From contig NW_020845264.1 of NCBI RefSeq assembly GCF_003704095.1, positions 310,001 through 374,000 on the forward strand: DNA of 64,000 nucleotides, given 5' to 3'. Position 1 is the first letter of the stretch. Every line of letters begins with the position of its first letter. Made by a program: the position numbers and the translations under genes. Source of the DNA: Pocillopora damicornis. Taxonomy: Eukaryota. The notes under the pieces are model-generated. The model was not told the DNA's origin and made no database searches. It was given only the letters and a program-made list of their open reading frames with translations. Shown here in pieces: positions 1 through 36,500 of this stretch.

Positions 1-158
1 CAAATATGATACTCATCAGCCTCAATGTATACATAAAACTCAACAACACAATGGTTAATTAGAATGCCATTTTATTTGACAGTATTACACTGTCCTAACT
101 TTTCACATTGGGGTACTAAGGTTCATTTTGGTTGGTAAACATATCCATGGTGGCTTAC

Positions 159-805
159 TTCTTTGAACAAAGAACTCAGGAAGAAATCCAGTAACTTCAC
201 ATCCACCTTCAGCAACAGTTTTAGCCACAGTGCCCATAAGCCCAACAGAACCGCCACCATAAATGAGATTGATCTTATTCTTCGCTAAGCAAAGACCAAG
301 AGCTGCAGATATCAAAACCACGTGAGAAATTCAAATGAAAGTTAAAAATCAACAACAATTGATTTGGCTAAATTTCTGCACATACTCATACTGTATGCAA
401 TACGCATACAATTCTCTTTGGGACAGTCTGAACAGTACGTACAGCTTTGTTTTACAACAGGATGAGGCTGTGCAGAAAATGTTACCTTGATTTTCTTCTT
501 ATCCTCAGAAATGCAAGTGAGGAGTTTAAGCAAGCAAGCTGAAACGGTCAGAGGATTAGGCTATTCTTCATAAAATTTGCAGATATTTATTTGAATTAAT
601 CTCTGACAATTGCAGCCATTTCTTGGTTTTCATAACATTGCACGTTTCAACTTATTTGGTAGTGTGCGCATTTGATCACAAGTCTAACCATAGACAAAAA
701 TTATTCGAATTTCCACAGAAGAGAAGTACCTCTCGCGCTCTCCTCGAATCTTGGGTCACTTCCTGAGCTGGAACCACAAAACACAGTGATCGTTTTCAAC
801 GCCAT
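159..805 (-). CDS. LOG-family (Lonely Guy) nucleoside 5'-monophosphate phosphoribohydrolase, 5' part; gene runs off the window start
   Basis: Exon 805-730 (MALKTITVFCGSSSGSDPRFEESAR, GT donor) splices in phase 1 to exon 302-159 (ALGLCLAKNKINLIYGGGSVGLMGTVAKTVAEGGCEVTGFLPEFF). VFCGSS and YGGG.VGLMG are typical LOG N-terminal motifs. Confidence 0.85.
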
Positions 806-2284
806 GATTAATCGAAGTACAATCATAAAGCAAAATTATCCAGGCGTAGTTATTCTAGTTCCCAGATTTCTCTGTCAGATACTGTAAGTTTCACTACCTT
901 TAATAAGTAAACGAGGGAAAAAAACAGAATTTCAACGCGGGCGTTTCCTTTGGAAAGCCCGAGTAATAAGTGAATAAAAAGATGAAAAAACCCTTTGAGC
1001 AGAACTCAACCAGATGCAAAGTTAATAAGGTAATCCGAGCAAATTTCGTGACCGAAATCACTGTCACGCGATGTAAGTTTTAACAGCATTTTGACCAGTA
1101 AGGCAAACCAGAATTAGGCGCAGATGACTGAATACAGACTGCAGGGATTTTATAGCTCATCTGTCTGGATTCGCTTTTTGTCCCGGCTCGAAACTAATCC
1201 TTAGATGTTACCTCGGTCACCAAATGGTTTGTTCACGCAATTCAACTCTCTTTGCAGTGCTTGCTTTGCACCGTAACAATGAATGTTATTGTGTCTTCTT
1301 GAATATCTTAATTCTTTTTAAAAGTAACTAATGAAAACAACTGTTGTAAGCATTCGAGAAAGTCCCGGAGTTCTCCGTCGTTTTCTGCTTTTGGAAGGTA
1401 AAGCTAAAGGTAAACAAGCAAACAAATGGTTGAAACTGTTGGTGCATGTTGATGAAACAGAAAACAATAGTGTCAACTCCTTTCTACATTCAAAGGTTCA
1501 CCCGAGACGCACAAGAGAGGGTCATCGTGATACAATGTTCTTATTTTGCGCCAGCCTCACACAAAGGATGCACCATGATAAATAACAAGGACTACCCATC
1601 TTATTCTCCATGGACGCAATTAACAAACAAAATCGTACATATCAAGCCAATAAGTCCAAAGGCATCCTTGATTTCATGCAAAGCATACGCAGTTAATCTA
1701 CGAAATTCTATCGAGCTCTCTTTCTGATATAACCATTGGTAACAAAAAAGAAAACCCAAACAAAAAACCAAACACAAGCAAACAAAACTCGTCAGAGGAA
1801 GGGAAGATTCGAAAGAGTGCCCCTTTGAAAAATATCTAATTCTCTAGTAATGCTGTACAGAAGAACCAATCACAATATTGGAGCCACTAAAATACTGTCG
1901 AGTCAACCATGAGTCACATGGACACCTCATAATCTAATCAAAGTACATCCAGATCATGATCGACTCTTTATTTCAGCAAAATAGCAAAGACCTGGGTCTT
2001 ATACTTGAACGTTATGAAAGAAACTAACAACAAACTTGACTCTATTCCAAATTCTGAGAGACAAATTGAAATGCCATGTTGGCATTGTTCGACTGTCTGG
2101 AAGGGAAATGTACCGTTTTAAAATACGAGACGAAAGAAAAATAATAAAAGAAATGTCTTTGCAAAAACGTCCTTTCGTTGAAGAAACCTCGAGGTGTTAA
2201 AAGAATTTCACCCCAGTAATGCAGCTAGTGGTGTTTAAAAGTATTTCTACACTGTTTCTCTCCTTAAACATAGCAATGTCCTTA

Positions 2285-5017
2285 TCATCGCGATGAACTC
2301 GAACTAGATCGGCTGTATCTCCGTCGCCTTGGTGGTGATCGACTTCTGCTCCGTGATTTCGAGCGAGACCTGCGCCTTGGAGACGGAGAACGCGATCGTC
2401 TACCCGCTCTAAACGAGCCACGGAATCGTGCAGGCGGTGATCTCCTCCAAGCTGGCATCGGACGGCGCCTCGGGGGTGGACTGGGACGGCGAGCGGGTCT
2501 AACGTCGCGTGGCCTTATGGGAAGCACCATCTGTGCGGTTATTTCTTGTCCATCAATCTGCCCGCCATCCATATGTTTCAAGGCAGTGTCTGCATCGTCC
2601 GCCTCGTCATACTCCACGTATGCAAATCCCCTGGGCATAAAGTTAAAACGGTCCATGGGTAAGTCAACTGACTTAACGTGACCGTATACGCTAAATATCT
2701 CGAAAACGTGATCCTTCGTGACGTTGCGTGTAAGATGTGCCACGTAAAGCTTGGCCGGTTTGGGGGTTGGGCTCCTTTTGCGTCTTCTAGGTGAGCGTGA
2801 AGAAGCTGAAGAAGACGATGAACGGGCGCGAGGTCCACGCTTCACAGGACTAGGAGACTTGGACACGGATTTGGAAACTGATCGCCGCGTGGGCCTAGTG
2901 CGTGGCGGCGGGGTGGGTGACTTAGGGACTGGTGATTTCTTTGGTGATTTCTTTGGCGATTTCCTCGGTGATTTTGGGGGAGGAGAGGCTTTGGGCGATT
3001 TTGGTTTAGGGGGAGGGGGTAGGGCTTTATCTTTGACTTCTTTGGGTTCCTTTGTTACTTCTTTCACTTCTTTGGTCTCCTTTTCCTTCACTTCTTTTTT
3101 AGTTTTGGGAGCTTTTCCCTTTTCATTATCTACAGAAAAGAAAACAAAAGAAAAAAGTCATTATAGAGGCCCAGTAAGAAGATGCACAAGTATTTACTTT
3201 TATGAACAACAACATTAAAAAGTTTACAAGCTGCAGGGGAGTATACTGATTTTTTTAAAGTCCTAATTCAGCTCTGGGTAATTTTTGAGTGCAATCTCAT
3301 TTTCACAAGCATTAAATTACTTATCAGAAATTCAGAGAATATCTTTGAATATTCAAAACTGAAAAAGACTATCTGGAGGGGATAAGAGGGTTATTGGTTT
3401 TCTCACTATGAGACTTGTAGTGCTCCACATACTCAATGGAACTTGGATTTCAAAGCAGTTGTAAAAAGTTCACAAACCAAGCTCCCTTAACTAACAAGCA
3501 AGACTCTATCATGATAGAATCACTCAGCAACGTAGTGGGTTTAAAATAATTAAAGTATGAAAGGACTCCTAAGTTTATCCACTCAGCTACAGGTGGATGG
3601 TACCTTTGATTCATCACTCTCATGATATTGGATAATAAATGATTAAATCTTTTTTTAAAAATGAGATAGGTCTACTAAGGTGTGTGAATAAGTCAAACAC
3701 TGCATATTTGTTTCCAAGAAAATAATTTGATATCCTTACTACTACTGCTGCTACTTGATCCACTACTACTGCGACTGGACCCACTATGACTTGATCCACT
3801 ACTACTGCTGCTACTACTTCTGCTGCTGCTTGACCCTGAACTGGAGCTGCGACTAGTGCTAGAACTGCCAGAGCTGGATGATGAACTGATAACAACACAA
3901 TCATGAAAATAAGCAATATTTCAATGAGGCTACACATGATATTATGTGAAAAAAAAAAAGCAAAGAGATGGTGGGCTTGGATTCTAGGCAGATTTTGAAC
4001 TCGACATGATAAATCCAATATCCACTACAGATACTACATTTATTAAGTCAACTTCCCACACTTTAGTACAGTTTCACAAAATCTCTCCTCAATGCTTTTT
4101 GACATGTCAAACAAATAGCAACTGAAGCACATTTGAGCATATCCACATAGAATGTGTGCACCAATAATTTGACATCATTATTAGTACCTTACCAATGCTG
4201 AAAAACTTTGGGTTGAACCTTTCCCTAAGTTTTTCATAATTTTCAGAGCTAAGCATTGGGTGAGTGTGAAACACAGTTAGGGTCGAATGAAGTTACCATG
4301 GTTTGGTCGTCGAGGTATACTAGAGAGCACATTAAACAGATCAGTATGTTAAGAGCCAACCTGGCTTACAATGATTAATATGCACTCATATCTCATAAAT
4401 AATGACCAAGACAACGTCTTTGTTGCCATTCTAAAATTTCCGCATGTCAGCTCCAAACAACATGCGAACACATCTTTGATTTGCGCAGGTCACATATGGT
4501 AAACAAAAATGATACATACAGCAAAATGGTTGCTGCCAAATTGAAACTACATTGATCATAGCTTTGTATACATAATGAAACTGATGTGTGGCATAAGGTT
4601 GCGGTTAAATCAGCGATATTCAATGAACAGAGGTAAAAAGCATTCAGAAAGGTCTCAAACAAGTCACCTGCTTGATAAACGATTTCGACGGCTACTTCCT
4701 TTATCTGTGCCGTTTTTGGCAGTCACTTTGCTTGAATCCCCTTTGCTTTTAGCCTTGGTCTTAGCCTTACTTGACTTTACTGGACTCCGGCCACGGGTAC
4801 TAGTAGTTCGCTTCTTTTCTTTGTCTTTGCGAGGTGCTGGAGAGCGCGAGCGACTTCTGCGACCCCTAAAGACCGACAAAATTCACGGCAAAATTAGCAA
4901 ACAAACAATCTAATATGCACCGTGATATAATTAAAAAAATAATTTGATATAAAGAGCAGCTTTTGAATGTGCAATAATAGAAAGATGGCCAAGGATTGTG
5001 CAGGAATCTACTCACAT
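2285..5017 (-). CDS. RNPS1: RNA-binding protein with serine-rich domain 1 (EJC/ASAP component)
   Basis: Exons 5017-5016 (AT), 4865-4668, 3885-3740 (poly-Ser) and 3129-2285 are phase-compatible. RRM KLYVAHLTRNVTKDHVFEIFS...MDGGQIDGQEI, RS/P-rich tail ending SRSSSSSSR. Confidence 0.93.
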
Positions 5018-5096: not shown

Positions 5097-8000
5097 ATGG
5101 CGGACGGCTTTAGTCTTTTGAACCTTGATGTTATTCAGAAGCAGTACTTGCAAATGGCTCCGTTGAAATTATTTCTTTGGAAAGTAAGATTATTTTGCAG
5201 AAAGAGTCAGTGGTGACACGACTGAAAATCTTCGGCGGCATATCTTTATTTTCGGGCAGCATAACTTCGGGCGAGATGACTTACTGACAACTTAATTTAA
5301 ACTACTCTTATATAACAAGGCATTTTTTCCCAAACTTAAAAAACTTTTTAAGCCACTGTTGTCGTTCATCGCGCAACTGTCATGTATAATGAAGTATGAG
5401 GTTGTACAGGAATCTCTTCGGTTGATTTAAACAATTTTATTCTCAATGTTATTGATTTTTCAGGCACTTGAGCAGGCAAGTCTCGACTTGGAAAAACAGA
5501 GAAAAATCCTATGCATGGTTTGTCTCATACATCTATCGATTTCAATTTTTTTTGCGTATTTGAATTAGCCATTGAAATATTTAATTATTTTTCAGACTTA
5601 TTTCTTCACTGCAGAATCGTCGTATGCTCCTTCGGTATCGTACCAAAGACTGTTTCTGAAACGCATGCTGAAGTTATGTGAGGACAGGTGTATCAAGATC
5701 GCGGATGAACTCTATGAAGCATACGGAGATGTGTGTGGTAAAGCAGAACACCTGGATAACAAGTGCTTTAAAACATATGTACTGGTGAGGTTCATTCAGA
5801 AAAGTATTGGGGACAATCATCAAAAACGAAAGATTTCCATTCAACCCCATGCTATTCTAAAACAAAGCCTTGGTCCCAGAGGTAATCTGTTTTTGTCGTG
5901 GGGGTAATTTTTTAAAGAAACTGTGGTGCTACCTTTCTTTTATCTGAGAACTGTACCCTCAATGAAGCATGGGGTAATGTGGGAACCTTGCCATCAAAAT
6001 TGACATATACATACATGCCAAGGTCTAAGAAAGTTATAGTATGTGTGTAACTATGATATACAAAAGGCACCACCCATATAAATTGGTTCAAGGACCCTTG
6101 TTCCTCTGGGGCATTTTGGAAAAGGCAACCCCTTTTAAGACAAAAAAAGTCATTTTTAATGTTGTAAGCCATTTATAATTAGAAAATTGGGTGACAGGTT
6201 TTACCCTTGTGAAGGACTTCTGGTGTCATACATTCTGCATCAGATAGGGAAAGTTCTATGTACAAGCATAAGAGTTAGGTGTGTGATCAAGAATATTCTC
6301 AGTGAGAGTATTTAGCATGTGATTGGGTGAATTATTCCTAAAACCTGTGATCTGTTAGGCCTGACATTTTAAGAGGAGCCTAATTAAATGTTAATTGATA
6401 ATTGAGGCAACCTTCAGCAGACTAACAATTTCCATAGAAGAAGGAAATAGTTTACCACTGGCCTCTTCATGCCAAATAAACCATAACATTAAATGGTTTA
6501 ACCTTTGATCACTTTTTAAGCCATGTGGGGCCTTGTTAACCCTTGAAGAAACTCAACAGTTTATCTCTAAAGGAACAACAGGACTTAGCACCTGGATGGT
6601 GAGTTTTCCTCTAAGATAATATCATAATTACTGGTGGTAATTTTTATGTATCCGGGAATGTATCAAGGTGGACTGTTATAGTAAGACGTAGCTGGATTTT
6701 TATAAAAGCCATAGGGGTAAGAACTCAGAGGAAAAATGTTACCAGTAACAACAGATACTTTTCTGCTCACTATTGGTTTTATGCCCACCATTTGATCCAC
6801 GATCAGAACATTATGATAATTGTTCTCATTTTTATTTTTATTCATTGTATTTAAGTCATGGTTTTGATGTAGATTAAATCTTGTAAATGGTAATTTTTTA
6901 ATGTAGATATAAGATTTGGCATGTAACTAATTTTCTCTTTTATTTAAATAATTATTTATTTATTCATCTACTGCTATTTAATTTTCAACTCCTAGTATGG
7001 TGTAAACTGTTTCAGCAGTGTCCCTATTAAAGTGAGAACTATGAGTAGGTCACTCTCCAAAAATTCAACAGGGGTGGAAGGGTAGGAGCTAATTTCTAAG
7101 GGTTGTATTATCAAAATGTTTACATTTGATTTTCTTTTGGAATGACTGATATCACAGGCAGGAGAATACCTTGCTGAGTGGGCACTAGAAAACCCTTCCC
7201 TATTTCAAGACAGGTAACTGTATGCTTGGCTTCAGATTAAGAAAAAGACCAACAACTTGAACTGCAAGTTAAAATTGCAGTTTATTCCATGAAAAAGATG
7301 GTTATTTTAAAAATGAAAATCATTATGCAGGCTTGGCAGTCTTGATGCCATCTTAATGTCTTTAGTTTTTGGCAGTAATAAATATTCAGAGGGCTTGGGG
7401 GATATGCTAGTTGTACCAATGATAAGTGTGCTAAAGATTTGGCTTAAATCCTGGCATGTATGGCAATTGTGTTGTACACTTGACAACTCATTTTGACATT
7501 GCTGCATTGGTTTTGACATTAAAATAAATCTTGCAAACTGTTAGGGAAACCACATGAAATATGGCAGGGTCACCAACTGTAGTAACCCATCTTTTAAGGC
7601 TGGAGTAGTTTTACAGTCAGTTGCTTCATTTGTCAGGAAGGCTGGGGTAGTTGGGGTCGTACAAATCATTCTTGAAGGGTTTCATAGTTCCCAGTTTCAA
7701 TTCTTCCATTTGCCATTCATTTTCTTTGGTGTTATTTTCCAGATCCATCATAGAGCTGGGCTGTGGTACTGGACTTACAGGACTTTCTATTTGCTCCATG
7801 AGTTCACCAAGCCAGTACATATTCAGTGACTGTCATAATGAAGTGTTCAAAGCACTTCAAAGCAACCTTGAACTGAATGGATTTGTCATAAGCCAGGCAG
7901 ACAGTGAATTACCATATTTAAATAACAAAAGGACTTGTGAGTCTCACACAGAGAGTGACATGCATAAACATTGGAAAGGATTGGCTCTCAGGAATCAAGA

Positions 8001-9557
8001 TAATCATGGCTACTCACATCACAGAGATATAACTTCTCAGCAAGACTCTGGAGTGACAACCAGCAAGACACCTGATATGGAAATAACTTTACACAAGTTT
8101 GACAAAACACCACAGTGTATGGCATGTTTATCAGACTATTCTGAAAGTGAAGATATTCATGACCTGTCAAGTTGTGCGTCAGATTTCATTGCTTGCTATT
8201 CAAGACATCCTTCAAGTCAGATAAGGCACTTAATTGAAGACTGTGCCAATCATTCTTGGGACACTCAAGTTGACATTTGTAAATTAGACTGGACAACTTT
8301 AAAGAAGAGTGATTTGAGGAGATTTTCAACTGGGATTATTTTAGCTGCTGGTATGTATAGGGAAATATGGTACACTTTCTCTTAAGTGTAGGACACTCAT
8401 GGGGTGTGGCTGTGGTGGGGGATGATGATTAGGTGATGCTAAATCCACAGAATGTACACTAAGGTGACTTTGGTGTTGGCACTATGTGAAGTTCTTTTCT
8501 GTCCAATAAGGCAATTTAAGCCATGATGATGAGGCCTCACAAGGCCAAAACAGCTGCACTATGCTGCTCTCTTGGTCACTTACTCCTTCAGCTTCTTCTG
8601 TATGATAGAGGAAACCACGGATCACTTACATCAATGCCTTGTAGCCATGAGTGCTCATCCTGAGGTTTCAGTGCACCATCTTAAATCAGACAATTGTTTT
8701 AATCTTGCATGACACCACATTAAGTGTAATCTGATGAATTCTTTCATACTGGTTTACAAATAACAGACACAGTGGTGATTTATCAAAATTGAAAATCTTT
8801 TAGGACCAAATGATGAATTTGTGAAAAGTATGTGTAATAGTTATGGAGATGAAAAGTTCTTCCCATCAAAAAAACCTGCCATCAAATTGGAAGACAAAGG
8901 TTCAGGTCAAAGCACATCAAAAGCAGTTGGGTTTGCCTTTTAGCTCTTGTATGACTAAAAAGCATGAGTGTGTTTGAGTTTTCTTTACTATAAATTGTGC
9001 TTTTAAAAACAAAACTGTTTTTAATTTCTTTAATAGATGTTATTTATGATAGTGAGTTGACCCCAGCATTAGTGAGAACTTTGCATCTACTCTTAAGGTA
9101 AGTACTGATCAAGTTAGTATTTTTTTTTGTCATGGTAGCTTCTCATACAAATTTACTTTGTTCATAAAAATGTCATTACTTGAGAAAGTTAACTAATGTT
9201 TTAACATGTGCATCTGTTGTAGTACTGGTGGCGATAAAAGGGGGAAACCTGTTGCTTTCATTGCTTCAACCATCAGGAATCTGCAAACATATGAATTGTT
9301 TCTTAATTGCCTTTGTAAGTAAAGTTAACTTCATTTGATTCCATTAGTAAAATTAAAACATTTTTATTATGATAAGTGTACAATTGCCCTTAATTTTAAA
9401 AATGTTCTTTGCAAAAAATTATAATTCTGAGGTAGAGTATTTTGTTTGGTTTGCAGATGAACACGATATTTCCTGCAGTGAAGTAACCAAGCCAGCAAAT
9501 CAAGTTTTTTATTATGATCAGAGTTGTGAAATTAAAATTATCAAGCTTGAAGTCTAA
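5097..9557 (+). CDS. EEF2KMT: Protein-lysine N-methyltransferase EEF2KMT/FAM86A-like (9 exons)
   Basis: Exons ~5097-5183, 5464-5517, 5596-5784, 6521-6598, 7158-7213, 7743-8350, 9037-9097, 9223-9314, 9456-9557. FAM86 N-domain (YQRLFLKRMLK, DELYEAY), GTTGLSTW-AGEYLAEW, motif I IIELGCGTGLTG, YIFSDCH, LDW, AADVIYD, ASTIRN. Confidence 0.9.
8526..8557 (+). ncRNA. Degenerate minimal hammerhead-like motif in an EEF2KMT intron
   Basis: ATGATGA-GGCC-tcacaa-GGCC-AAAAC-AGCTG resembles CUGAUGA/stem II/GAAAC, with both core strands mutated. Confidence 0.4.
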
Positions 9558-11317: not shown

Positions 11318-14300
11318 TCACCAATGCGGGAACTGTTCCTCTAGTCCTGAATTCATGAGCCTAATTGGAAGATCTTCCATGTTGGGAAGGACAAACATGT
11401 TCTGAAACACATTACAAAAAAACAAGCAAAGAAATTATGCAAAGACAATTTGAAAACTGTAAGATAATACACAAAAACCAGAGGGATGCAGTCCAAAGTG
11501 GGGTTAAAGCAACAATAACAAAACAGCAAGGGTGACAAAAAGACAAAATTAGGCTTGAAGCACAAGCCAGAAAAGCCACTTGGCATGTCAGCCCAAGTAC
11601 ACTTTTTTAATCAAATATTAATCAATCTTCAGTGATACTTTACAATGACAATGCACCTCTCCAATCTACAGAATGGCTGTCCCTCCTGCTAATGAAGCTG
11701 ACTTGCGGGATTGGTATGAAAGGTGGGGTTGGATTACTATTGACTATCATACCACATATGGGTGGAAACAATAATCCATACAATTATTAGGTCTGTACTC
11801 AGCTCTATGAGTTAGCCCAGACTTATAGCTGTTTGTTGTAGAACTTCACCTGCTCTCTTAATTTTTCTCTAACTTGGTAATTTACATGTAACATCTATTC
11901 ACAAATTTCCATTTAAAAATACTTACCTTAAACTCTTGTTTCAACTTTTTTTCAATCCAGTCAGTAACATGGGTGAGTTTGACTTGACGTTCACCAAGCT
12001 TTGGTCTTGCAGAGACAAACAACATGGGACTCCCCCGGAAACCATACCTGCAACAATGTATCAAATTTGAATTGAATGCAAACTAAAAATTATTACACCC
12101 CATGAACAGATAAAGTCCAAAATGTTCTTCAAAATCTCAAAACTAGTGCTTCTTCCACAGCTTCTAGATCAGATTTTACAACACAATTTAATGTACAAGC
12201 AGGAAATAAATTAAAATTTCAAATAAAAATTTTGCTACTTAACAGGTAAAAATAATAATAATGTTAATTATCATATTGTGTTTTGCATTTTATTTACCAA
12301 CTGGTAATCTATTTAAATAATGAAAATAATTTTTTCTACAATATTGTGTCACAGTTGATTTTCCTCCAAGTGTGTTAAACCTATACATTTACTCTCATAC
12401 CAGTAAGTAACACTCCTCTTTAAGAATCGCCAAGTTCACTAAAAATTTGTTGAGTTTGTTGGCATGTAGCAATAGATTAAATTTACTGAATGTAGAGTCA
12501 CCTACTGTTTGAAACATCTTTAAGTTCCAAATTAATTATTCCCTTTCCATAAAGCTTTTCTTTCCCTTTCCTAATACATGGAAATCAATGATAACCATGT
12601 AAAGCTGGACTTATATCAAATACGTTTTCATACCTGTGAATTGGCACAAAGACTTAGTGGAAAGAGACAATTACCTTGCTAAAAAAAAGAAAGGAGAAAA
12701 ACAGGAGAAAATTTAATGCAGTTGATTACAACATACCACAGCCTGTTTGTAGGAGGTGGGGGAATGTTCAGTGCAAGAGTTCCTTTGACTGTTAATACCT
12801 CCACTGACAAAATAATTGGCAGATTAGAAAACCTCTCAGCTGCTCTCTTGACAATGCCAGTCTCCGCTGCTTTCTTCACCCACTTAGATTTTGCCAGCCG
12901 TTCAATTACACTGAAGATTTTGCGCTTTGGTCCATTCTTAGTAGAAAGACCTAAATGTTTTTTCATTGGAGTACTAGGGGCACTTTCTGATGTCTTCTCA
13001 GGAAGAACTTCAGTGAGCAAGCCTTTATCTGATAGTTCCTCACTTGAACTCTGTTTCTGAGAAGACAGTTGTCTCCTTCTTGGTTGAGTGCTCTTTTCCA
13101 AAGAAGAATTTCCTTCTTCCGCATCAGTTGCATTACTCAGAGATAAAGGATCCTTGCTTTCCAGAAGCTCTTCATCACCATCAAAACTGCTCAAGGTGAA
13201 GGAGTCAGAGCTTTCACTCTGAGGAATATCTTCCAGCTTCTCTCTTCCACTCTGCACAGTTCCAAGAGGCTTGATCATAAACTCTTCAAAGTCAGATTCT
13301 GGTGATTCAAAGTCAGAGTCACTGTCAGGTGGACTCTCAGATCCTGAGTCATTATCAAGTTCAGCTGCGCCCAAACTTTCTTTGTCAAGATTTTCATATT
13401 TCCTTGACAGCTCTGCCATTTCAAGCTCTGCATGCTCACTGTTTCCAAGGCTTAAAAAGTAACTCAAGTACCCTTCTATATTTAAATGGCCTTCAAAAGT
13501 AAGGATCAAGCCTCCATTGTAAGTCACTTCTAAATCAACCCATGTACCATCATGCTCAACCTTCGGAGAAGATGTCTTCGTTATAACTGGAAGACTCTGG
13601 CCAAGGTTAAGATCAGAAATTGAGATGTCCCGGATGAAGGAGGGTTTCTTCATCTTGGCAAGCTTGTTTTCAAAGCGTTCCTTGATCTTGTTAGTCCAAT
13701 ACTTGTCATGCCATACATCCCAAAATACTCTCCCAAACATGACATTAACCCATGCAATTTCTGACTGTTGGGAAGGCTGAGCAATGAGTTTAGCCATGTA
13801 TTGGGGATATGAACACAAAGGCAGGGTCTCCAGGTCGGAAGAGTTTCCAGAATTGTCATTAAGAAGTCTGCACAGGTGATTATACCAATCTTCTTTCTCC
13901 CTACCAGTCCTTGCAAATAAGTAAAGTACACCAACATCATCTAAAGAATCTTGTTCCTTGATTTTGATGCTCTCCTTTGCAGCACTTTCTTCATCAGCAC
14001 TTTTGCTAAAACAGGAGATATCTTCAGAATGTGTCCCTAGCTTTTCAAGAGCAAGGCAGATTGGAAACTTTCGACTCCATACTTTCTTCATTGTCATTGA
14101 TGCTGGTAAAAGTGAAACTTTGCTTCCAGTTAAATCATAGTGTTCATGCTTTGAGAATGATACGCTTGCTCCCTCTTCAATGGATCGCGGGTCAAACTTC
14201 TTTCCAGAATCTTCCACATGAGGATGTGACAGTTTTAAGTTTGTTCCATTTAAGGAGGCAAAGACTGGAATAGTCTCGGCACTGAATTCGAACTTCTCTG

Positions 14301-16251
14301 GGATGTAATCAAATGACTTAAACATCCAGCCCTAGGAAATAAAAAAAAAAAACAAACATAAAAAGAAAGATCTGGACTGAAATTTTACAAAATAAGCAAA
14401 ATATTAATTCAAATGATAAAAACACTGTTTATGTAAAGTACACTTCAAAGTAAAGCCATTTAAAGGCTTTGTACAATTTATGACGTCATTTCTCTGATCA
14501 ATAAAAGTAATATCTAATGATTAATCTGTTAGATAAACTATATTTGTTTCATTTAGCGAAGAAAGTTTTCCTTGTATGTCTCCCTGAGGGTATTTTGCTT
14601 CAATTTTGATGCATCAAAGCTACACCATCCATTTTTTCAAAACTTGATCACAAGGTCTGACAATAAAATCAAGGTTCTATCTATATCATTGGCCAATTGC
14701 ATCAATATACATAGTACGACAAGATTGTAGAAATTCGAATAACATCATTAAAAATTTACCGCGACATAATTTTAAAATGTTATGTTCCTATAGAATATCA
14801 GACTTCCTAAACTCGATGGTAAACGTAACTGTACAAACACACGCTTAAGGCGTAGAAAGTAACATGAAAGTGACGAATACACTTCCAGAAAGAAATGGGC
14901 AAGTGAAAAATCGGTTGAGGAGATTTTCCTTTTCCTGTCGCGAAGAATGTTTTTGATAAATGCAAACTTAAATACTTGCCTCTAATTTGTTTCTCTCTAA
15001 AAGTAACCCAGGATCAGTAGATTTGTAATCAAGCGTGGGGATTCTTGCTAGTCTTTGTTCATATTCCATTAGTTCTTTTTCGTATCGTTCAGCAATGGAG
15101 TCCACTGGACAAAATAGCCAAAGAAATGCACATCCCCCTAAATATGTCAGTAAACCTCCAAGCACTACCCCAGACATAAACGGAGGAGACGATGTGATGA
15201 AGTAGATATAAACTATTAAAGAGCAAAAACAAAAATTGGCGAAATGAGGGGATTTGTCCACCGTAGGGTGCGGTAAATGTCGTACATCACTACCAGCTTT
15301 TGTGTTTCTGGTCTCCTCAAAATGGTTTAAATTGAAAGACAAGTCAGAAGAAGATTGAATTTCAGAGTTTATGTCTGCGCTACTTTCATTTTCTTCGGTA
15401 TCCGAAACAATTTCTTCAGGCTCAACGTGCGCTTCATCTTTCGCTAAACTCGCCAACAGAGATGATAAAGAAATGCCAGCTGAGCTTTTCGGCTTTTCCT
15501 GTTCGGCACCTCCACGGGTGTTTTCATCTTGACGATCTCGATTCAATTTACGACGAAAAGGTGACGGAGACCTAGATCTTGGTCTGTCCACTGTTAATTT
15601 GCTTTGTAAATCTTCATCAACATGAGTTTTGGAGGGAATCGATCCGACATCTTTTTCCTCTTTTATCTCTTGTTCTGGAAGCGAAAGGCCTTCTTTTGCG
15701 GGTTCAGACTTCGGTTCGTTTCCCTGATCTCCGCGACCACGCAGGAACTTCATTATGACCGAATCAGAGTCTTCTGATCGCAAATAACTCGGCCACGTAC
15801 TTTGTTTCTGAACTATCGACCGCTTTTCTGAGGTCGCTCTCAGCTCTTGAGTAGAGTGGCTCTTACTAGCTAATTTCAAGCCAGCTTCCGACGAGCTCTT
15901 TTTCGCATTTGAAATCGCTTCAGTATGTTTGTCAACTTCCTGACGAGAAGGGTCGACGCTCTCAAGCTGTTCGTAATCTTCCACTGTCACTTTACAGAAA
16001 CCATCCTCTTCATTTTCACCTTCGATTCGCAGTCGGGGATCGTTTCTATCATGGCTCTCTCTGTTTCCTTTACGTTCGATGGATATTTCTTCGTCAGAAT
16101 CTAACTCCTTATTGCTAGAACTGTAACGAATAGAGATCGAAGCAAATGCATTTCGAATCGATCTTTCAGGAGCTACTCCGGTTGGCTGGCCACTTCTCGC
16201 GGTCGTTGTTCGTGGTAAGGGTGGTCGGGGTGGCGGCTTTTTTGCACTCAT
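11318..16251 (-). CDS. TEX2: Testis-expressed protein 2 (TM + PH-like + SMP lipid-transfer domain), 4 exons
   Basis: Exons ~16251-14980, 14331-12736, 12048-11927, 11401-11318. Motifs KKVWSRKFPICL, LYLFARTGREKEDW, WVNVMFGRVFWD, GTLALNIPPPPTNRLWYGFR, ARPKLGERQVKLTHVTDWIEKKL, FVLPNMEDL. Confidence 0.93.
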
Positions 16252-30554: not shown

Positions 30555-33500
30555 TCAGACTGAATCTCCCCCTCCGTTCAACAGGCCAGGGGGAAGGAAT
30601 GTCGTCATGGAAGGGCTTACAAGCCCGTCTCCTGATCCTGACTGAGGCTCCACATCACGTGGGACTCCAGCTGGAAAGGACCACATACTGGGTACTTGGG
30701 AAAAGTTTCCACCAAGGGCTGTTTGCTGTGAAGGGCCTGTACCCCACAAGTAGGACGGTGCTGGTGCGTGTCCATGTGCACTACCCCATGGTACACTGGG
30801 AGCTGCAGTGTTAGGCTTTGCCCCAGGCTGTTCGCTTCCCTGTGAGCCGATTACCCACTGAGGGCTGGGGGCATTGACCTTGGACTGTTCGCCAGCAACA
30901 AGGCCTTGCGAGGGCGAGGGCAGTGTCCCTATCGTAGATCCCCACTGCATTCCAGATGTGGTGTTATTTACTTTTGGGATGGGCTGTTCAGTGCTTGATA
31001 CTCCGGGTGGAACCTTGCCAATCGGTGCTTTGGTTGTAGATTGAATATTGTCCGAAGTTGCCGCAGAACCAAGCACGTTCTGAAAGGACCACTGATTACC
31101 GTACGTGTTGCTGGGAAATGGGTTTGCACTCCAATCCATGGTTTGCTCAAAGAAGCTACCGATGTCACTGTCTGTAGCGAAGTCTGCTGCCACCTGGGAG
31201 CCAACCAGCATCATGCCATTCAACGCTGCCCTCGCTTTTGCCGCTTCTTCCATGCTGCCGTAACGGATCAAGCTGTTCCCATGGCGAAGATTCAACTGAA
31301 ATGTGAGCAGTGGCCCATGCCTCTCGCACATAGGACGGAGGGTCTTGGGATCCATCTGCAAGCGAGACAAGATCATTAAACGATTGTCATAAGTTCCTCT
31401 TCCTGCTAATTCTTCGATACAGCAGATAAATATTCAATCGACAGTAACATTTGCCTTTTTTTACGATGTATCTGCTAAGAGAGTGGGTGATATGGTAAGT
31501 AATGTCATGTTAATCACGTAAGGAACTAGACCAGACTGTATGACTACTCACTCATGATACTAATATTATGACTTGGCTATGTGGGGAAAAAAGATAGTTG
31601 CCAAGAATTTTCCATTACATTGCCTTAACTGGCTTTCAGATAAAAGAAAGGATTTTAATGGACTCGACAACGTAAGAGCAAAACTCACCCTTGGTGACAA
31701 ATTGCGCAGTACCAGCCAAGTTGACATGGAATTGACAGCAGTTCTAGAAGGAGCAACACCGCTAGATGCAGATACAGGGGGGACAGAAGTCCCAGGTAAA
31801 TTCCCTGAGAGCTTCTCCTCAGCACTCGGTATGGGTTGATTCGTTGACCAGATGATCCCTGAGTTTTGCAAAGATGATGGCTCGGTTGTGCTCACACTTC
31901 CACTACGGTTTTCACTTGTTGCCATAGTTACAGATGATGCCGACGATGACAGAGTAGGAGCAGGACCCCCGACAGCAGCCCAAGGTTGAGGGTTGGGTGT
32001 CAAAGGACTAAACGGCTGCGTACTGCTATCTCTTGGACTCCATGGTGTTGAACTGTTCGCAAACCCAAAGCGACTGAACTGAAACTCAGGCTGGGTTTTA
32101 TCGCCTCCAAGACTGGAACCATCTATTAAGCTTTTCAACCAAGCAGGAGGCTCTTCGTCAAAGAGAGGGGATTCAGGTAAAGTGGTGTCAGATCCCAACC
32201 CAGGGGGAGGTCTCAACAGTGATGCAGCACTGGATCCTGCAGATCTACTTGTCGCTTGCGCAGGTGGGGCAGGGGCTTTATTGCCTAGCCATGGGGTTGA
32301 GCCTACGCCAAAGTCGATTTGACTTGACTCAAATGTATGGTTATTGACCAACAGTCCTGAGAAGGAAGAACTTGCAATGGTAGTGACAACATTGTCTGCT
32401 ACCTTTACATTGCTTCCAAGTTGTACGCTGCTGGGCGCACTGACAGTTTGGTTTCCCAAATTCGACCAGCTATCTGATGAGGAGTCAATAGTGGAAGATG
32501 GACGACTGGAGCTTTCCACGGTGTTGGGAGAAACACTATCTCTCACTTCATCTCTTTTGTCAGATTTTGGAGCAGGGCGCCATGGTACACCTGGTTTAAA
32601 TTCAGGTGGGTCAGCAGACAGCTTGGGACCAGCGTCCACACCCCACCTGCTTGAAACTGGATCAGGAATTCGTGCCCGTGGAGAAACATTGTTGCTGTTT
32701 GGAGCTGAGGAATCAGATAGGTCACTGGTTGAAATGGATGGAGCTGATACGACACTGGTTAGCACACCTGAAGATGATTGTGAAGGAGCTGATATTGTCT
32801 GAGCTTTGGAGTCCACTGAGGCTGGTGTGCTGCTAGTGACGGTGGACTGAGTGACTGGTGCTGATGAAGGTTCATGTAACAATGGCTGCTTCCACTGTGT
32901 GAGCCTAGACTGAGTAACAGGAGAAGGTTGCTTGGGTTGTTCTTCTGATGTCACAGGAGAAACAGCAGATGGTTCGCTGGGCTGAGACTTAACAGCGTCT
33001 GCTGTCTTGCTCGTTGGTGCCTCTGTTGCTGGTTTGTCATTAGTTGCGGCTTTATTGCCCTTCTGTTGTGCATTAGGTGACTGCTGTTGCTGCTGCTGTT
33101 GCAGTAGAGATTGCTGCTGTTGTTGTTGTTGTACTGCAGTAAACGGCAATGCAGGATGTCTCCCGGCCAGCCCAGGCTGCTGCTGCAGAACTTGCTGTTG
33201 CATCTGAGCAATCATGAGTGCAATCTGCTGTTGCTGTTGATACAATTGTTGTTGAGGCACTACCTGTTGTTTCTGTCCTAAGTGTTGCTGAGCAACAGAC
33301 TGTGCAGCCAGGCGCTGTTGAACGAGCTGAAGTTGAGCTATCTGCTGCAGCATAGCAAACTGCTGAGGGGTGAATGGAGGCTGAAGAAGACCTCCCTGAG
33401 CCATTCTCAGCTGCTGCAGATGTATCTGTTGTACAAACTGAGGATGAAGTAATGGATGAGCAAGTGTTGGTCTCAATGGGCCCTGTACCCCTGGGCCTGG

Positions 33501-36500
33501 GGCAGGAGGTACTACTGGTGGACCAGATCTTTTGCCGTTGCTAGGCAATTGCGATTGCCCATTTATGGGCTTTACTGCCCCAGCTACAGATGATGGAGGT
33601 TTTTCAGGTTTTGTTGTGCTCGTGGAAGTTTTTGTTTTAGAGTCTTGTTGTACTTCATCCGTTTTAGAAGTTGATTGAGTTTCTGAAGTCTTGTCTTGTT
33701 GTTCACTGGCAGGTTTAGTAACAGATTCACTGACTTGAGTCACAGACTTTGAAACTGCGACCTCATTTTGTCCTTGCCTTTGTTCAGTTTTTGATTCAAG
33801 AGTTTGTTGCTCGGCTTGCTGTTGCTGTTGAAGTTTCCTTCGTTGTTTGCGGTTTAGTTTACCTTGACCTTGCTGCTGTTGCTGTTGGATTCTTGCTGCT
33901 TCTGCAGGATCAGGCTCTTGGAGTTTTCCACTTGGAACTGATACAGACTGTTCCCTGTTTTCGCTCATGTTCATGGCCAGTAGGTCCCCTGAAAGCACGG
34001 CAACAGATAACGTTATGAATGTTATATCTGACCTTCTGATCAAAATCAGTTAATTAACTCTTAGCTATCAGTTGGGTGATATTGTTTTGATATACCAAAT
34101 TCTTAACACAGGCCATCACAAAACTCTAAGGTAAGCAGTTGGGAGAATCTGTTCACATATCTTTGAAATAAAAAAGCGTAACGTCTGGAGAACTGAATGT
34201 GGTGTGGGATAAAGTTCTATACTATGGAAGGGAGAGTGGTGGAGACCAAAAAAATTTATATTGGGAAAGGAATACGCAAAAACCAATTGAGCCACAAATG
34301 GATTGGTGTAAGAAACATAGGCAGACAACCTGTGGCTGGTCACAACTTACTTATCACCTATTCCAGAATTTCGATCCCCTTCATAATTTTCCTTTTTTAT
34401 AAATTCACTTTACCTATTTCAAACGTTTTCAAGTGGAATTCCCCATGAAAATCTTCTTAAACATTAACCCACTGGATTTTTCAAGAACCGCAAACCAATT
34501 CTGAACTTTTACATTAAAAGAGACCCTATAATAAAATAATGACTGAGAATCATACCTATTGCACTCTCGATGTTCATATGATTTGCCTTCAAAGCTTTTT
34601 CAGCATCCTCTTGCTGCGCAAAATAAGAAACATAATGGTAAAAGGAAACCATTTCAGCTGAGACAATCAAAATTGTCTGTACTTTATATAGTTCTACACC
34701 TAGGAAATACGTTTGAAAACCCGTGCATATTTCGAAAAGAATGTTCTCAAGTTCTCAAATAAGATTAACACGCATCAACTGCATGAATATGCATAGGAGA
34801 TCACTCACCTTGAAACCCATGTCTAACAGTTGTTTGAGAGATCTGTTCATCCACGCATTTGAGTCATTAGCTGGTTTGGGAGCCTAAAACATTTTGAGAG
34901 TAATGATAATTATTTCTCATAAGCAACCAGCCAGAATTTCCATAATAAAATGTAGTGACAGGAGAAAAGCATTAAGAGACAGGAGAGTATTATCCACTTC
35001 TCAGTATAAAATAGCCCAGGCCAATGAAATTTAGCCCTGGTTGAATTTGTCTGCTCTCACATAACTAAGGAACACACAGACTGACCTTAATACAATATAA
35101 TAAAAAAACCTTAGCAACCAGAATAAAGTTTACTCACTTGACCTAGAGTAATTGTAAATCCACAAAAGAGCGTCTGCCTACTATTGACCAGTTACAACAA
35201 CATACAGATGAATCCCGATAACTTAAATCGCTGCTAACTTGAACCTTGCACTAACTCAAACCAAAAGCGATTTCCCCAGGATTTCCGTCATACAATTGCT
35301 GTAATTTTAACCTCGGCAATCTACGTTTCCCCTAAGGTCTTTCTCTATCTATCTTTAACACTCAATAACTCGAACTGTGTCAAACCACATTTGCCAATAC
35401 ATGTGAACTTGAGACAAACGTGTACTGCAGTCCAAAACATTAAATGAAATTATTTTGAAACAGCCCTGTAACATTTGTTGTTTTTCCACATTACAAAAAC
35501 ATGTCAGTCCAGTTCAGGTTTCCTTGGTTTAGGATACATTAAACTACAGTGCCTTTATCTTCATTTCTCAATAACTCAAATTCCCGTTAAATCAAACCTT
35601 TTTCAATTTTTCTTGAAGGTTCAAGTTAACAGGATTTGACTGTAGTAGTCAAATTCAAGTCAGAGACATTTCTTACCCTATTTCTTTTAGATGCTGTGGT
35701 CCACCCATCTAGAGATCCCTCAGATCCTTCATCATTATCCAAATTTTCTTGTCCCCATTCTAAATCTGCAAGTGACACTCCTGTACTCTCTAACCACTGT
35801 GAAACTTTGCTGCTACTCACGGTTTTAAGATCAGAAGTTGTGTCTGATTTTGACACTACATTGTCCCAACAAGAGGTACCCGTGATATCTACAGAAGATC
35901 CCCATTTAGATGAATTAGACACAGGTACTTCACCCCAGCCAGATGAAGGTTTAGTAGTAGAGGTTGAAGTTACAGTTTGTTCAGATTCAATGTCCCCACT
36001 TGATTTGGCCACAGAATTAGAGTCCAAAATAGGTGGTTTACTAGACTTGGAATTTGTGAGTCCATCCGAAGTAGAGTGAGGTTCAGTCCATTTAGTATCA
36101 GTCTCAGCAGGGGTACCACCCCATGAGGCTGTCAGATTACTAGTAACCACTGTTGATGTTGTTGGCACTTTAGGCTTGACAGCCTTTCCAGGTGTTTTGC
36201 TCCAGCTTGGAGTCTCAGATACATATGAAGTGTTCACAAGCTCTCCTTTTCCTGGGTCATGACTGCGCCCTAACGACACTGAGTCCTTTGCATCTGTGCT
36301 ACTCTCCCAGTTTGAACCATTCCCTATTAACCCCCCAAATCCCCCCTTGGTCACTCCGCCCCAGCCTGCCCCAAGTCCTCCATTATCTTTTGCCGTTGCT
36401 GCTTCAGCAGCATCAATAGCCTGATCAATAGACTCATCAATGACATCCCAGTTCTCAGATGATGTTGTTGAAGTCCCATGCCAATTACTAGTTGGCAAAG

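What the first reader, a model, noticed from the sequence alone, without database searches (positions are those of the whole stretch)
159..805. Intron-containing LOG (cytokinin-activating enzyme family) gene in an animal genome
Seen: two spliced exons with LOG motifs (VFCGSS; YGGGSVGLMG) directly downstream of RNPS1, so it is not bacterial contamination. Established: LOG enzymes release free cytokinin bases from their monophosphates in plants, bacteria and fungi and are not a standard vertebrate gene; some members act on AMP or other NMPs instead. Inference: if the host is a symbiotic coral, a host LOG could make or modulate a phytohormone-type signal (for example from tRNA-derived isopentenyl-AMP) at the algal interface, or it may simply do nucleotide salvage.
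Basis: partly seen in the sequence, partly recalled or inferred. Interest (0 to 1): 0.7.

Follow-up and report, generated by a model that had tools for sequence, protein, structure and literature searches.

The report
Ancient cnidarian LOG nucleotide hydrolase
This coral gene is an intact, spliced member of the 'Lonely Guy' enzyme family that makes cytokinin hormones in plants, but anemones and jellyfish that lack algae carry it too, so it likely clears modified nucleotides rather than signalling to the coral's algae.

Summary
Window 805-730 and 302-159 (minus strand) are exons 1-2 of a six-exon, 196-aa LOG gene; exons 3-6 lie just outside the window. All five introns are joined in RNA contigs from two studies. 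The catalytic Arg93/Glu116, the PGGxGTxxE motif and the type-Ia substrate-site residues are intact, the predicted fold matches Arabidopsis LOG3, and dN/dS is about 0.09. RefSeq already annotates it (LOG7-like, Pocillopora). The symbiosis reading is not supported. Orthologues occur in stony corals, sea anemones, a scyphozoan and a hydrozoan, and form one cnidarian clade (97/90) that follows the species tree. A divergent LOG is also in Trichoplax. Six of the 12 named animal genera have no algal symbionts (recalled). The genome scan found one tRNA isopentenyltransferase but no cytokinin receptor domain or cytokinin oxidase. In P. acuta the LOG transcript is enriched in oral epidermis. Best reading: an old cnidarian housekeeping enzyme that likely cleaves N6-modified or damaged nucleoside monophosphates. 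Substrate and deep origin (vertical or early transfer) are unresolved. I found no paper on cnidarian LOG as such. Modest interest.

The parts
730..805 (-). LOG exon 1 (ATG at 805; codons 1-25 plus 1 nt; VFCGS motif with phosphate-binding Ser12). An in-frame ATG 21 nt upstream is used by the RefSeq model (203 aa).
   Evidence: RNA joint
303..729 (-). LOG intron 1, 427 nt, GT-AG, phase 1. The same site is inferred for Nematostella, Rhopilema and Hydractinia from their annotated isoforms.
   Evidence: isoform break points
159..302 (-). LOG exon 2, 144 nt (YGGG glycine-rich loop)
1..158 (-). First part of LOG intron 2 (288 nt, GT-AG, phase 1), which runs off the window's left edge. Beyond the edge, on G000:C1899 (window position = contig position minus 310000), minus strand: exon 3 at 309870-309791 (Met90, His91, catalytic Arg93, Lys94); exon 4 at 309513-309446 (PGGxGTxxE motif, catalytic Glu116); exon 5 at 309264-309189; exon 6 with stop at 308867-308721; then the neighbour gene MPG (methylpurine-DNA glycosylase) at 308474-307169, 246 nt after the LOG stop.
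2285..4870 (-). Upstream neighbour RNPS1 (at least three coding exons; 5' end not mapped); same order in an Orbicella-like transcript contig (L100)

Best explanation
[quoted passage not shown] Shown: gene structure, splicing, active-site residues, purifying selection, cnidarian-wide clade. Inferred from solved homologues: a homodimer binds the phosphate through Ser12 and the PGGxGT loop, and Arg93 and Glu116 break the base-ribose bond. Inferred from yeast, Dictyostelium and mouse work: the likely substrates are N6-modified AMPs from RNA turnover (isopentenyl-AMP from tRNA, methyl-AMPs) and base analogues, perhaps with slower turnover of AMP. Free isopentenyladenine would then be a by-product.
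For: Six-exon model and 5 of 5 RNA joints in two studies. All catalytic, AMP-site and prenyl-site positions named for Corynebacterium LOG are matched (PMC4979012 passages; table). TIGR00730 174 bits against a cut-off of 96. Model pLDDT 82; best PDB fold match AtLOG3 2A33, E 4e-20, rmsd 1.6. dN/dS about 0.09 against another coral's transcript. One locus found in the genome. Cnidarian clade 97/90, with Hexacorallia 100/99 and a medusozoan branch 94/84. Present in 6 of 12 named animal genera that lack algae (lifestyles recalled). No CHASE or cytokinin-oxidase match, and only a tRNA-type IPT. Yeast LOG1 protects against the base analogues HAP and 5-FU, and the authors propose clean-up as the family's original role (PMC5940212 passages). 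Dictyostelium LOG, also type Ia, cleaves both isopentenyl-AMP and AMP (PMC11228631). N6-modified AMPs from RNA turnover inhibit AMPK and must be removed in mice (10.1101/2024.05.23.595515 abstract).
Against: No activity data exist for any cnidarian LOG in what I saw. The residues cannot tell substrate apart: nearly all 66 rows of the tree, plants and bacteria alike, carry the same set. Expression is not uniform as a pure housekeeping gene might be: in P. acuta the LOG transcript is strongly higher in oral epidermis than in aboral tissue (log2FC 12.0, SE 3.75, padj 2.3e-7; gene id linked to the name by list order only), which suggests a cell-type-specific job. Dictyostelium LOG turns over cytokinin nucleotides faster than AMP. 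Animals already have the ADK-ADAL route for these nucleotides; whether this coral has ADAL is open (the scan found only ADA).
Confidence: 0.62

Rival explanations
1. Host-made cytokinin for the symbiosis: tRNA-derived isopentenyl-AMP is converted by LOG to isopentenyladenine that acts on the algal symbionts.
For: Type-Ia prenyl-site residues are identical to plant LOGs. A tRNA-IPT is in the genome. The gene is kept in all six zooxanthellate or facultatively symbiotic coral genera named. An old housekeeping gene could have been co-opted.
Against: It predates the symbiosis and is kept, even duplicated in Nematostella, in species without algae. Enriched in oral epidermis, while gastrodermis markers were higher in the aboral sample (oral gastrodermis was not sampled). 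No match for the words cytokinin, phosphoribohydrolase or Lysine_decarbox in the supplements searched for an Acropora symbiont-inoculation study or an Aiptasia study; one file of each was not searched and naming may differ, so this is weak.
Confidence: 0.1
2. Epidermal cytokinin-like signal or defence metabolite unrelated to algae: LOG releases isopentenyladenine or another modified base in the seawater-facing epidermis to act on the animal's own cells or on surface microbes.
For: Strong oral-epidermis enrichment in P. acuta. Dictyostelium uses a type-Ia LOG to make cytokinins outside plants. Retention across cnidarian classes.
Against: No CHASE receptor or cytokinin oxidase found (exon-wise scans can miss genes). 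No dedicated adenylate IPT found. The expression figure comes from five low-input dissections per tissue with a large standard error.
Confidence: 0.15
3. Canonical AMP/NMP nucleosidase for purine turnover, supplying ribose 5-phosphate and free bases in secretory epidermal cells.
For: Bacterial type-I LOGs hydrolyse AMP and were crystallised with it (5ZBK, 5ZBL); Dictyostelium LOG also cleaves AMP.
Against: Where both were compared, N6-substituted nucleotides were preferred or AMP was slow or not used.
Confidence: 0.1
4. Recent horizontal transfer into corals from bacteria, algae or plants.
For: After cnidarians, the best hits are plant and bacterial proteins at about 43-53% identity.
Against: Five spliceosomal introns; the clade spans Anthozoa, Scyphozoa and Hydrozoa with species-like branching; shared intron-1 site inferred from isoforms. 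Only an ancient transfer before the cnidarian radiation remains possible (AU p 0.076 for cnidarians with Bacteroidota, 0.059 with fungi).
Confidence: 0.03

Closest known systems
Arabidopsis LOG3/LOG8 (type-Ia cytokinin riboside 5'-monophosphate phosphoribohydrolases; PDB 2A33, 1YDH)
   Same: Best PDB sequence and fold hits (E 1e-51; 46% identity, rmsd 1.6); same catalytic, AMP-site and prenyl-site residues.
   Different: Plants have multi-gene LOG families inside a full cytokinin pathway (adenylate IPT, CHASE receptors, CKX). The coral has one LOG and none of the other three was found.
Dictyostelium discoideum DdLog (PMC11228631)
   Same: Single-copy type-Ia LOG of about 200 aa in a non-plant eukaryote.
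   Different: DdLog is biochemically shown to act on isopentenyl-AMP, benzyl-AMP and AMP, in an organism that makes cytokinins; nothing of this is shown for the coral. I did not align the two.
Saccharomyces cerevisiae LOG1/YJL055W (PMC5940212)
   Same: Single LOG in an organism with no plant-type cytokinin signalling; model for the clean-up role.
   Different: Its role rests on genetics with base analogues; fungal and cnidarian LOGs were not joined in the tree, and the ascomycete-type genes seen have introns at other sites.
Corynebacterium and Pseudomonas type-I LOG (PDB 5ITS, 5ZBL, 5ZBK)
   Same: 39-44% identity, TM 0.82-0.85, source of the residue assignments.
   Different: Bacterial and intronless; assayed mainly on AMP.
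RefSeq XP_027043453.1 'LOG7-like' (Pocillopora damicornis) and cnidarian orthologues
   Same: Same protein as the model here, plus 7 N-terminal residues from an upstream ATG.
   Different: Automatic annotation only; I found no study of it.

Membership tests
LOG family, type Ia | PGGxGTxxE motif | tested here: met
   Residues 108-116, in exon 4
LOG family, type Ia | Catalytic Arg and Glu (CgLOG Arg99, Glu122) | tested here: met
   Arg93 and Glu116; kept in 10 of 10 named cnidarian rows
LOG family, type Ia | AMP-site and prenyl-site residues Ser, Met, His, Lys, Glu, Glu, Trp (type Ia, unlike Ib and II) | tested here: met
   Ser12, Met90, His91, Lys94, Glu115, Glu119, Trp123
LOG family, type Ia | Rossmann-like alpha/beta LOG fold | tested here: met
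   AlphaFold2 model pLDDT 82.4; Foldseek 2A33 E 3.9e-20; type-I structures rank above type-II
LOG family, type Ia | Family profile above curated cut-off | tested here: met
   TIGR00730 174.3 against 96.35; PF03641 128.9 against 27
LOG family, type Ia | Homodimer with active site at the interface | not tested
   No complex prediction was obtained; inferred from homologues only
LOG family, type Ia | Phosphoribohydrolase activity on a nucleoside 5'-monophosphate | not testable with these tools
   Needs an enzyme assay
Classical cytokinin-activating LOG (plant sense) | Selective for cytokinin nucleotides, inactive on AMP | not testable with these tools
   Residues do not discriminate. NCBIfam equivalog NF058542 scores 115 against a cut-off of 300, but all four proteins scanned fell equally short, so this says little.
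Classical cytokinin-activating LOG (plant sense) | Part of a cytokinin pathway: adenylate IPT, CHASE receptor, cytokinin oxidase | tested here: not met
   PF03924 and PF09265 gave no candidate; PF01715 gave one locus, a 506-aa tRNA-type IPT. Exon-wise scans can miss genes.
Symbiosis-specific host gene | Restricted to hosts of photosynthetic algae | tested here: not met
   6 of 12 named animal genera lack algal symbionts (lifestyles recalled)
Symbiosis-specific host gene | Expressed in alga-hosting cells or induced by symbiosis | tested here: inconclusive
   Oral-epidermis enrichment in P. acuta, oral gastrodermis not sampled; no hits in two symbiosis supplements; the Stylophora cell-atlas supplement was not seen
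Horizontally acquired gene | Nested within a donor clade with support | tested here: inconclusive
   Cnidarian clade sits in an unresolved polytomy; AU rejects neither fungi (p 0.059) nor Bacteroidota (p 0.076) as sister

The most novel reading that the evidence does not exclude
Cnidarians are animals with a complete tRNA-IPT to LOG route that makes free cytokinin (isopentenyladenine) in the seawater-facing epidermis, and use it as a signal to their own cells, surface microbes or algae: the first native cytokinin-activating enzyme working as such in an animal, a relic of a pathway that vertebrates lost.
Probability: 0.15. Interest if true: 0.72.

Novelty: new member of a known kind. Interest (0 to 1): 0.3.

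Why it matters
LOG is treated as a plant, fungal, amoebal and prokaryotic enzyme. The passages I read list no animal member, and ten literature searches found only one passing mention in a coral gene list. Showing a cnidarian-wide, selected, spliced LOG extends the family to early-branching animals. It gives a clean test in Nematostella, Hydractinia or Aiptasia of whether the family's old job is clearing modified nucleotides, and of where cytokinin bases in animals come from. As it stands this is a range extension of a known enzyme that databases already label, not a new mechanism or a symbiosis gene.

Tried and rejected
Contamination or pseudogene: rejected. Lysine decarboxylase, the Pfam name of PF03641: a known mis-annotation. 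Second LOG copy in the genome: none over threshold. ESM Atlas: it did not hold P0003; the Nematostella and Trichoplax proteins returned only bacterial LOG clusters, which says nothing on range. Nearest prokaryotic loci were mostly alphaproteobacterial at 39-51% identity with no outstanding donor; that list was cut at 80 of 585 and is biased by the seed patterns. Intron comparison with ascomycete-like metagenome genes: none of their intron sites, in the four loci viewed, matched the five coral sites, so this gives no support for shared ancestry and, given intron turnover, little against. Trichoplax LOG is a long branch; joining it to cnidarians is neither shown nor rejected (AU p 0.48). The three AU groups were chosen after seeing the tree. 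ADAL search found only ADA: inconclusive. Homodimer prediction: no job was run, the queue was full; no verdict. Earlier findings of this scan: nothing by sequence, words or place. The paper reader closed, so the Stylophora single-cell atlas supplement (PMC8162421), which could show the expressing cell type, was not seen. Bilaterian range was not established: only the best 120 of about 7,700-7,900 hits were listed in each search, and no named bilaterian was among them.

Full report
Observation. On the minus strand, window 805-730 is a 76-nt exon from ATG to a GT donor, and 302-159 is a 144-nt exon between AG and GT. Exon 2 alone matches Arabidopsis LOG8 at E 1e-9 and other LOG structures. The window is G000:C1899:310001-374000. 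The neighbouring stretch holds four more exons at contig 309870-309791, 309513-309446, 309264-309189 and 308867-308721. Spliced in a script, the six give 591 nt and 196 aa with no internal stop; introns are 427, 288, 277, 181 and 321 nt, all GT-AG. Of four runs laid, RNA runs X7 and X17 (two studies) join 5 of 5 introns at these lengths, X1 joins 4 of 5, and X19 (library type not on record) covers the gene in one contig with no joint. A database protein of 196 aa from a 906-nt contig, P0003, is 194/196 identical. The RefSeq protein XP_027043453.1, 'LOG7-like', Pocillopora damicornis, equals the model plus seven N-terminal residues. So the gene is real, transcribed and already labelled by automatic annotation.

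Protein. P0003 scores 174 bits on TIGR00730 (cut-off 96) and 129 on PF03641 (cut-off 27). Its best PDB hits are AtLOG3 (E 1e-51), AtLOG8, and Claviceps, Pseudomonas and Corynebacterium LOGs; type-II LOGs are far weaker. An AlphaFold2 model from a 13-sequence alignment has pLDDT 82.4 and matches 2A33 at E 3.9e-20, rmsd 1.6. The residues named for Corynebacterium LOG (PMC4979012, passages) map to Ser12, Met90, His91, Arg93, Lys94, Gly110, Gly112, Thr113, Glu115, Glu116, Glu119 and Trp123, all present. This is the type-Ia pattern (PMC5379747, passages). 10 of 10 named cnidarian rows keep them, apart from Ser12Ala in Hydractinia; nearly all plant and bacterial rows keep them too, so they prove family and not substrate. 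dN/dS against one other coral transcript is 0.09 (dS 1.4, a rough pairwise figure). No strongly hydrophobic 19-residue stretch was seen (maximum 1.12), which fits a cytosolic protein.

Range. With P0003 as query, 7,703 of 7,999 scored candidates passed and 120 were listed; the top 13 rows are coral- or anemone-type at 56-100% identity, then plants, bacteria and a few other eukaryotes at 53% or less. Named members are Pocillopora, Stylophora, Orbicella, Oculina, Desmophyllum, Acropora, Montipora, Nematostella (two adjacent copies) and Actinia. A profile search added the jellyfish Rhopilema at 43%. Of these 12 animal genera, six have no algal symbionts: Desmophyllum, Nematostella, Actinia, Rhopilema, Hydractinia and Trichoplax (recalled, from no call). 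No named bilaterian appeared, but only the best 120 rows were shown in each search, so the range outside Cnidaria is not settled.

Origin. I chose 66 rows by hand to cover each branch of the 339-row tree, replacing three rows by fuller or named cluster members. The careful tree gives a clade of ten named cnidarians plus three unnamed rows at 97/90, split into Hexacorallia (100/99; anemones 99/91, stony corals 98/98) and a branch with Rhopilema and Hydractinia (94/84). This follows the species tree. Annotated isoforms of Nematostella, Rhopilema and Hydractinia break at the codon where coral intron 1 lies, and a Nematostella isoform skips the coral's exon 2; this is inference from proteins, not genomic mapping. 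The gene was therefore in the cnidarian ancestor. Deeper placement is open: Trichoplax is a long branch with five changed site residues (AU p 0.48 for joining it), and AU rejects neither fungi (p 0.059) nor Bacteroidota (p 0.076) as sister; these groups were picked after seeing the tree. Ascomycete-like genes from metagenomes have introns at other sites (four loci viewed).

Context. Upstream is RNPS1; 246 nt after the LOG stop begins MPG, the methylpurine-DNA glycosylase. Among 30 metagenome loci, one contig carries RNPS1 and then a LOG start 100% identical to Orbicella's over 73 aa, and one carries LOG and then MPG. The order is thus kept in at least one other coral family; a contig across two genes shows no single transcript. 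The genome scan found one LOG locus, one 506-aa tRNA-type isopentenyltransferase, and no cytokinin-oxidase or CHASE domain. These scans go exon by exon and can miss genes.

Expression. A laser-dissection study of Pocillopora acuta (PMC13581030; abstract, sections 8, 18 and 24, passages and supplement rows seen) names 'LOG3' among the top five genes of an oral-epidermis enrichment. The gene id in the matching list position, g15141, has log2FC 12.0, SE 3.75, padj 2.3e-7. Gastrodermis markers were mostly higher in the aboral sample; oral gastrodermis was not dissected. Supplements of two symbiosis studies gave no hit for LOG names, with one file unsearched in each (PMC10017044; PMC10584924).

Mechanism. 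Shown: an intact, selected, spliced type-Ia LOG. Inferred from structures: a dimer that hydrolyses the base-ribose bond of a nucleoside 5'-monophosphate. Inferred role: removal of non-canonical monophosphates. Yeast LOG1 protects against HAP and 5-FU, and its authors propose clean-up as the family's first function (PMC5940212, passages; echoed in PMC8989509, passages). Dictyostelium LOG cleaves isopentenyl-AMP, benzyl-AMP and AMP (PMC11228631, first two of four parts). In mice, N6-modified AMPs from RNA turnover inhibit AMPK and are removed by ADK and ADAL (10.1101/2024.05.23.595515, abstract). A coral LOG would be a parallel exit for such nucleotides, releasing isopentenyladenine as a by-product. 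Against this: no assay, a strongly tissue-biased transcript, and a redundant known route. I put clean-up at 0.62, an epidermal cytokinin-like signal at 0.15, plain AMP turnover at 0.10, algal signalling at 0.10 and recent transfer at 0.03.

Novelty. Ten searches of the held library (listings only, unless read as stated above) turned up no study of a cnidarian LOG beyond the P. acuta mention; subscription journals are not covered. PMC8234997 (passages) and PMC13143021 (passages) added only background. Earlier findings of this scan showed nothing. Verdict: a new member of a known kind, already auto-annotated, of modest interest (0.30) as a range extension to early-branching animals; the symbiosis idea is not supported.

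Noticed in passing
G000:C1899:308474-307169 (outside the window's left edge), L089: MPG (methylpurine-DNA glycosylase) starts 246 nt after the LOG stop on the same strand, and the pair is kept in another coral. Both enzymes cut N-glycosidic bonds of modified purines, one in DNA and one in free nucleotides; the link may be chance.
   Followed up: partly
window 2285-4870, 7651-8382, 30558-34049 and the MPG gene: RNPS1, MPG, a Methyltransf_16 gene (looks EEF2KMT-like) and a long low-complexity gene resembling TNRC6/GW182 (by eye, no Pfam hit) lie together; their human counterparts are on chromosome 16p (recalled), which hints at an old linkage group from which vertebrates lack LOG.
   Followed up: no
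P0348 (Trichoplax): The placozoan LOG keeps the catalytic Arg and Glu but changes five substrate-site residues (Phe, Tyr, Asp, Asp, Gly at 90, 91, 115, 119, 123), suggesting a different substrate or separate origin.
   Followed up: partly
P0022, P0024 (Nematostella): Two LOG copies with consecutive accession numbers on contigs of the same length, a likely tandem duplication in a non-symbiotic anemone.
   Followed up: no
G000:C1224:138404-139924 (L086:1177-2697): The tRNA isopentenyltransferase gene is one uninterrupted 506-aa reading frame, intronless in its coding part.
   Followed up: partly
window 925-969: A stretch of about 43 nt, about 120 nt upstream of the LOG start, recruits many unrelated contigs in all four runs, so it is a short dispersed repeat in or near the 5' region.
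   Followed up: no
window 12682-14331 (-): 550-aa open frame with an MMM1/SMP-domain hit, likely TEX2-like.
   Followed up: no
window 52893-53378 (-): 162-aa frame with a weak ALKBH8_N hit, a pattern typical of the tail of LINE-type reverse transcriptase remnants (recalled).
   Followed up: no
L003:158-1561 (G000:C1899:290358-291761, +): Exons of an amine-oxidase-like gene (GRLYFAGEAT motif, by eye) about 15 kb beyond MPG.
   Followed up: no
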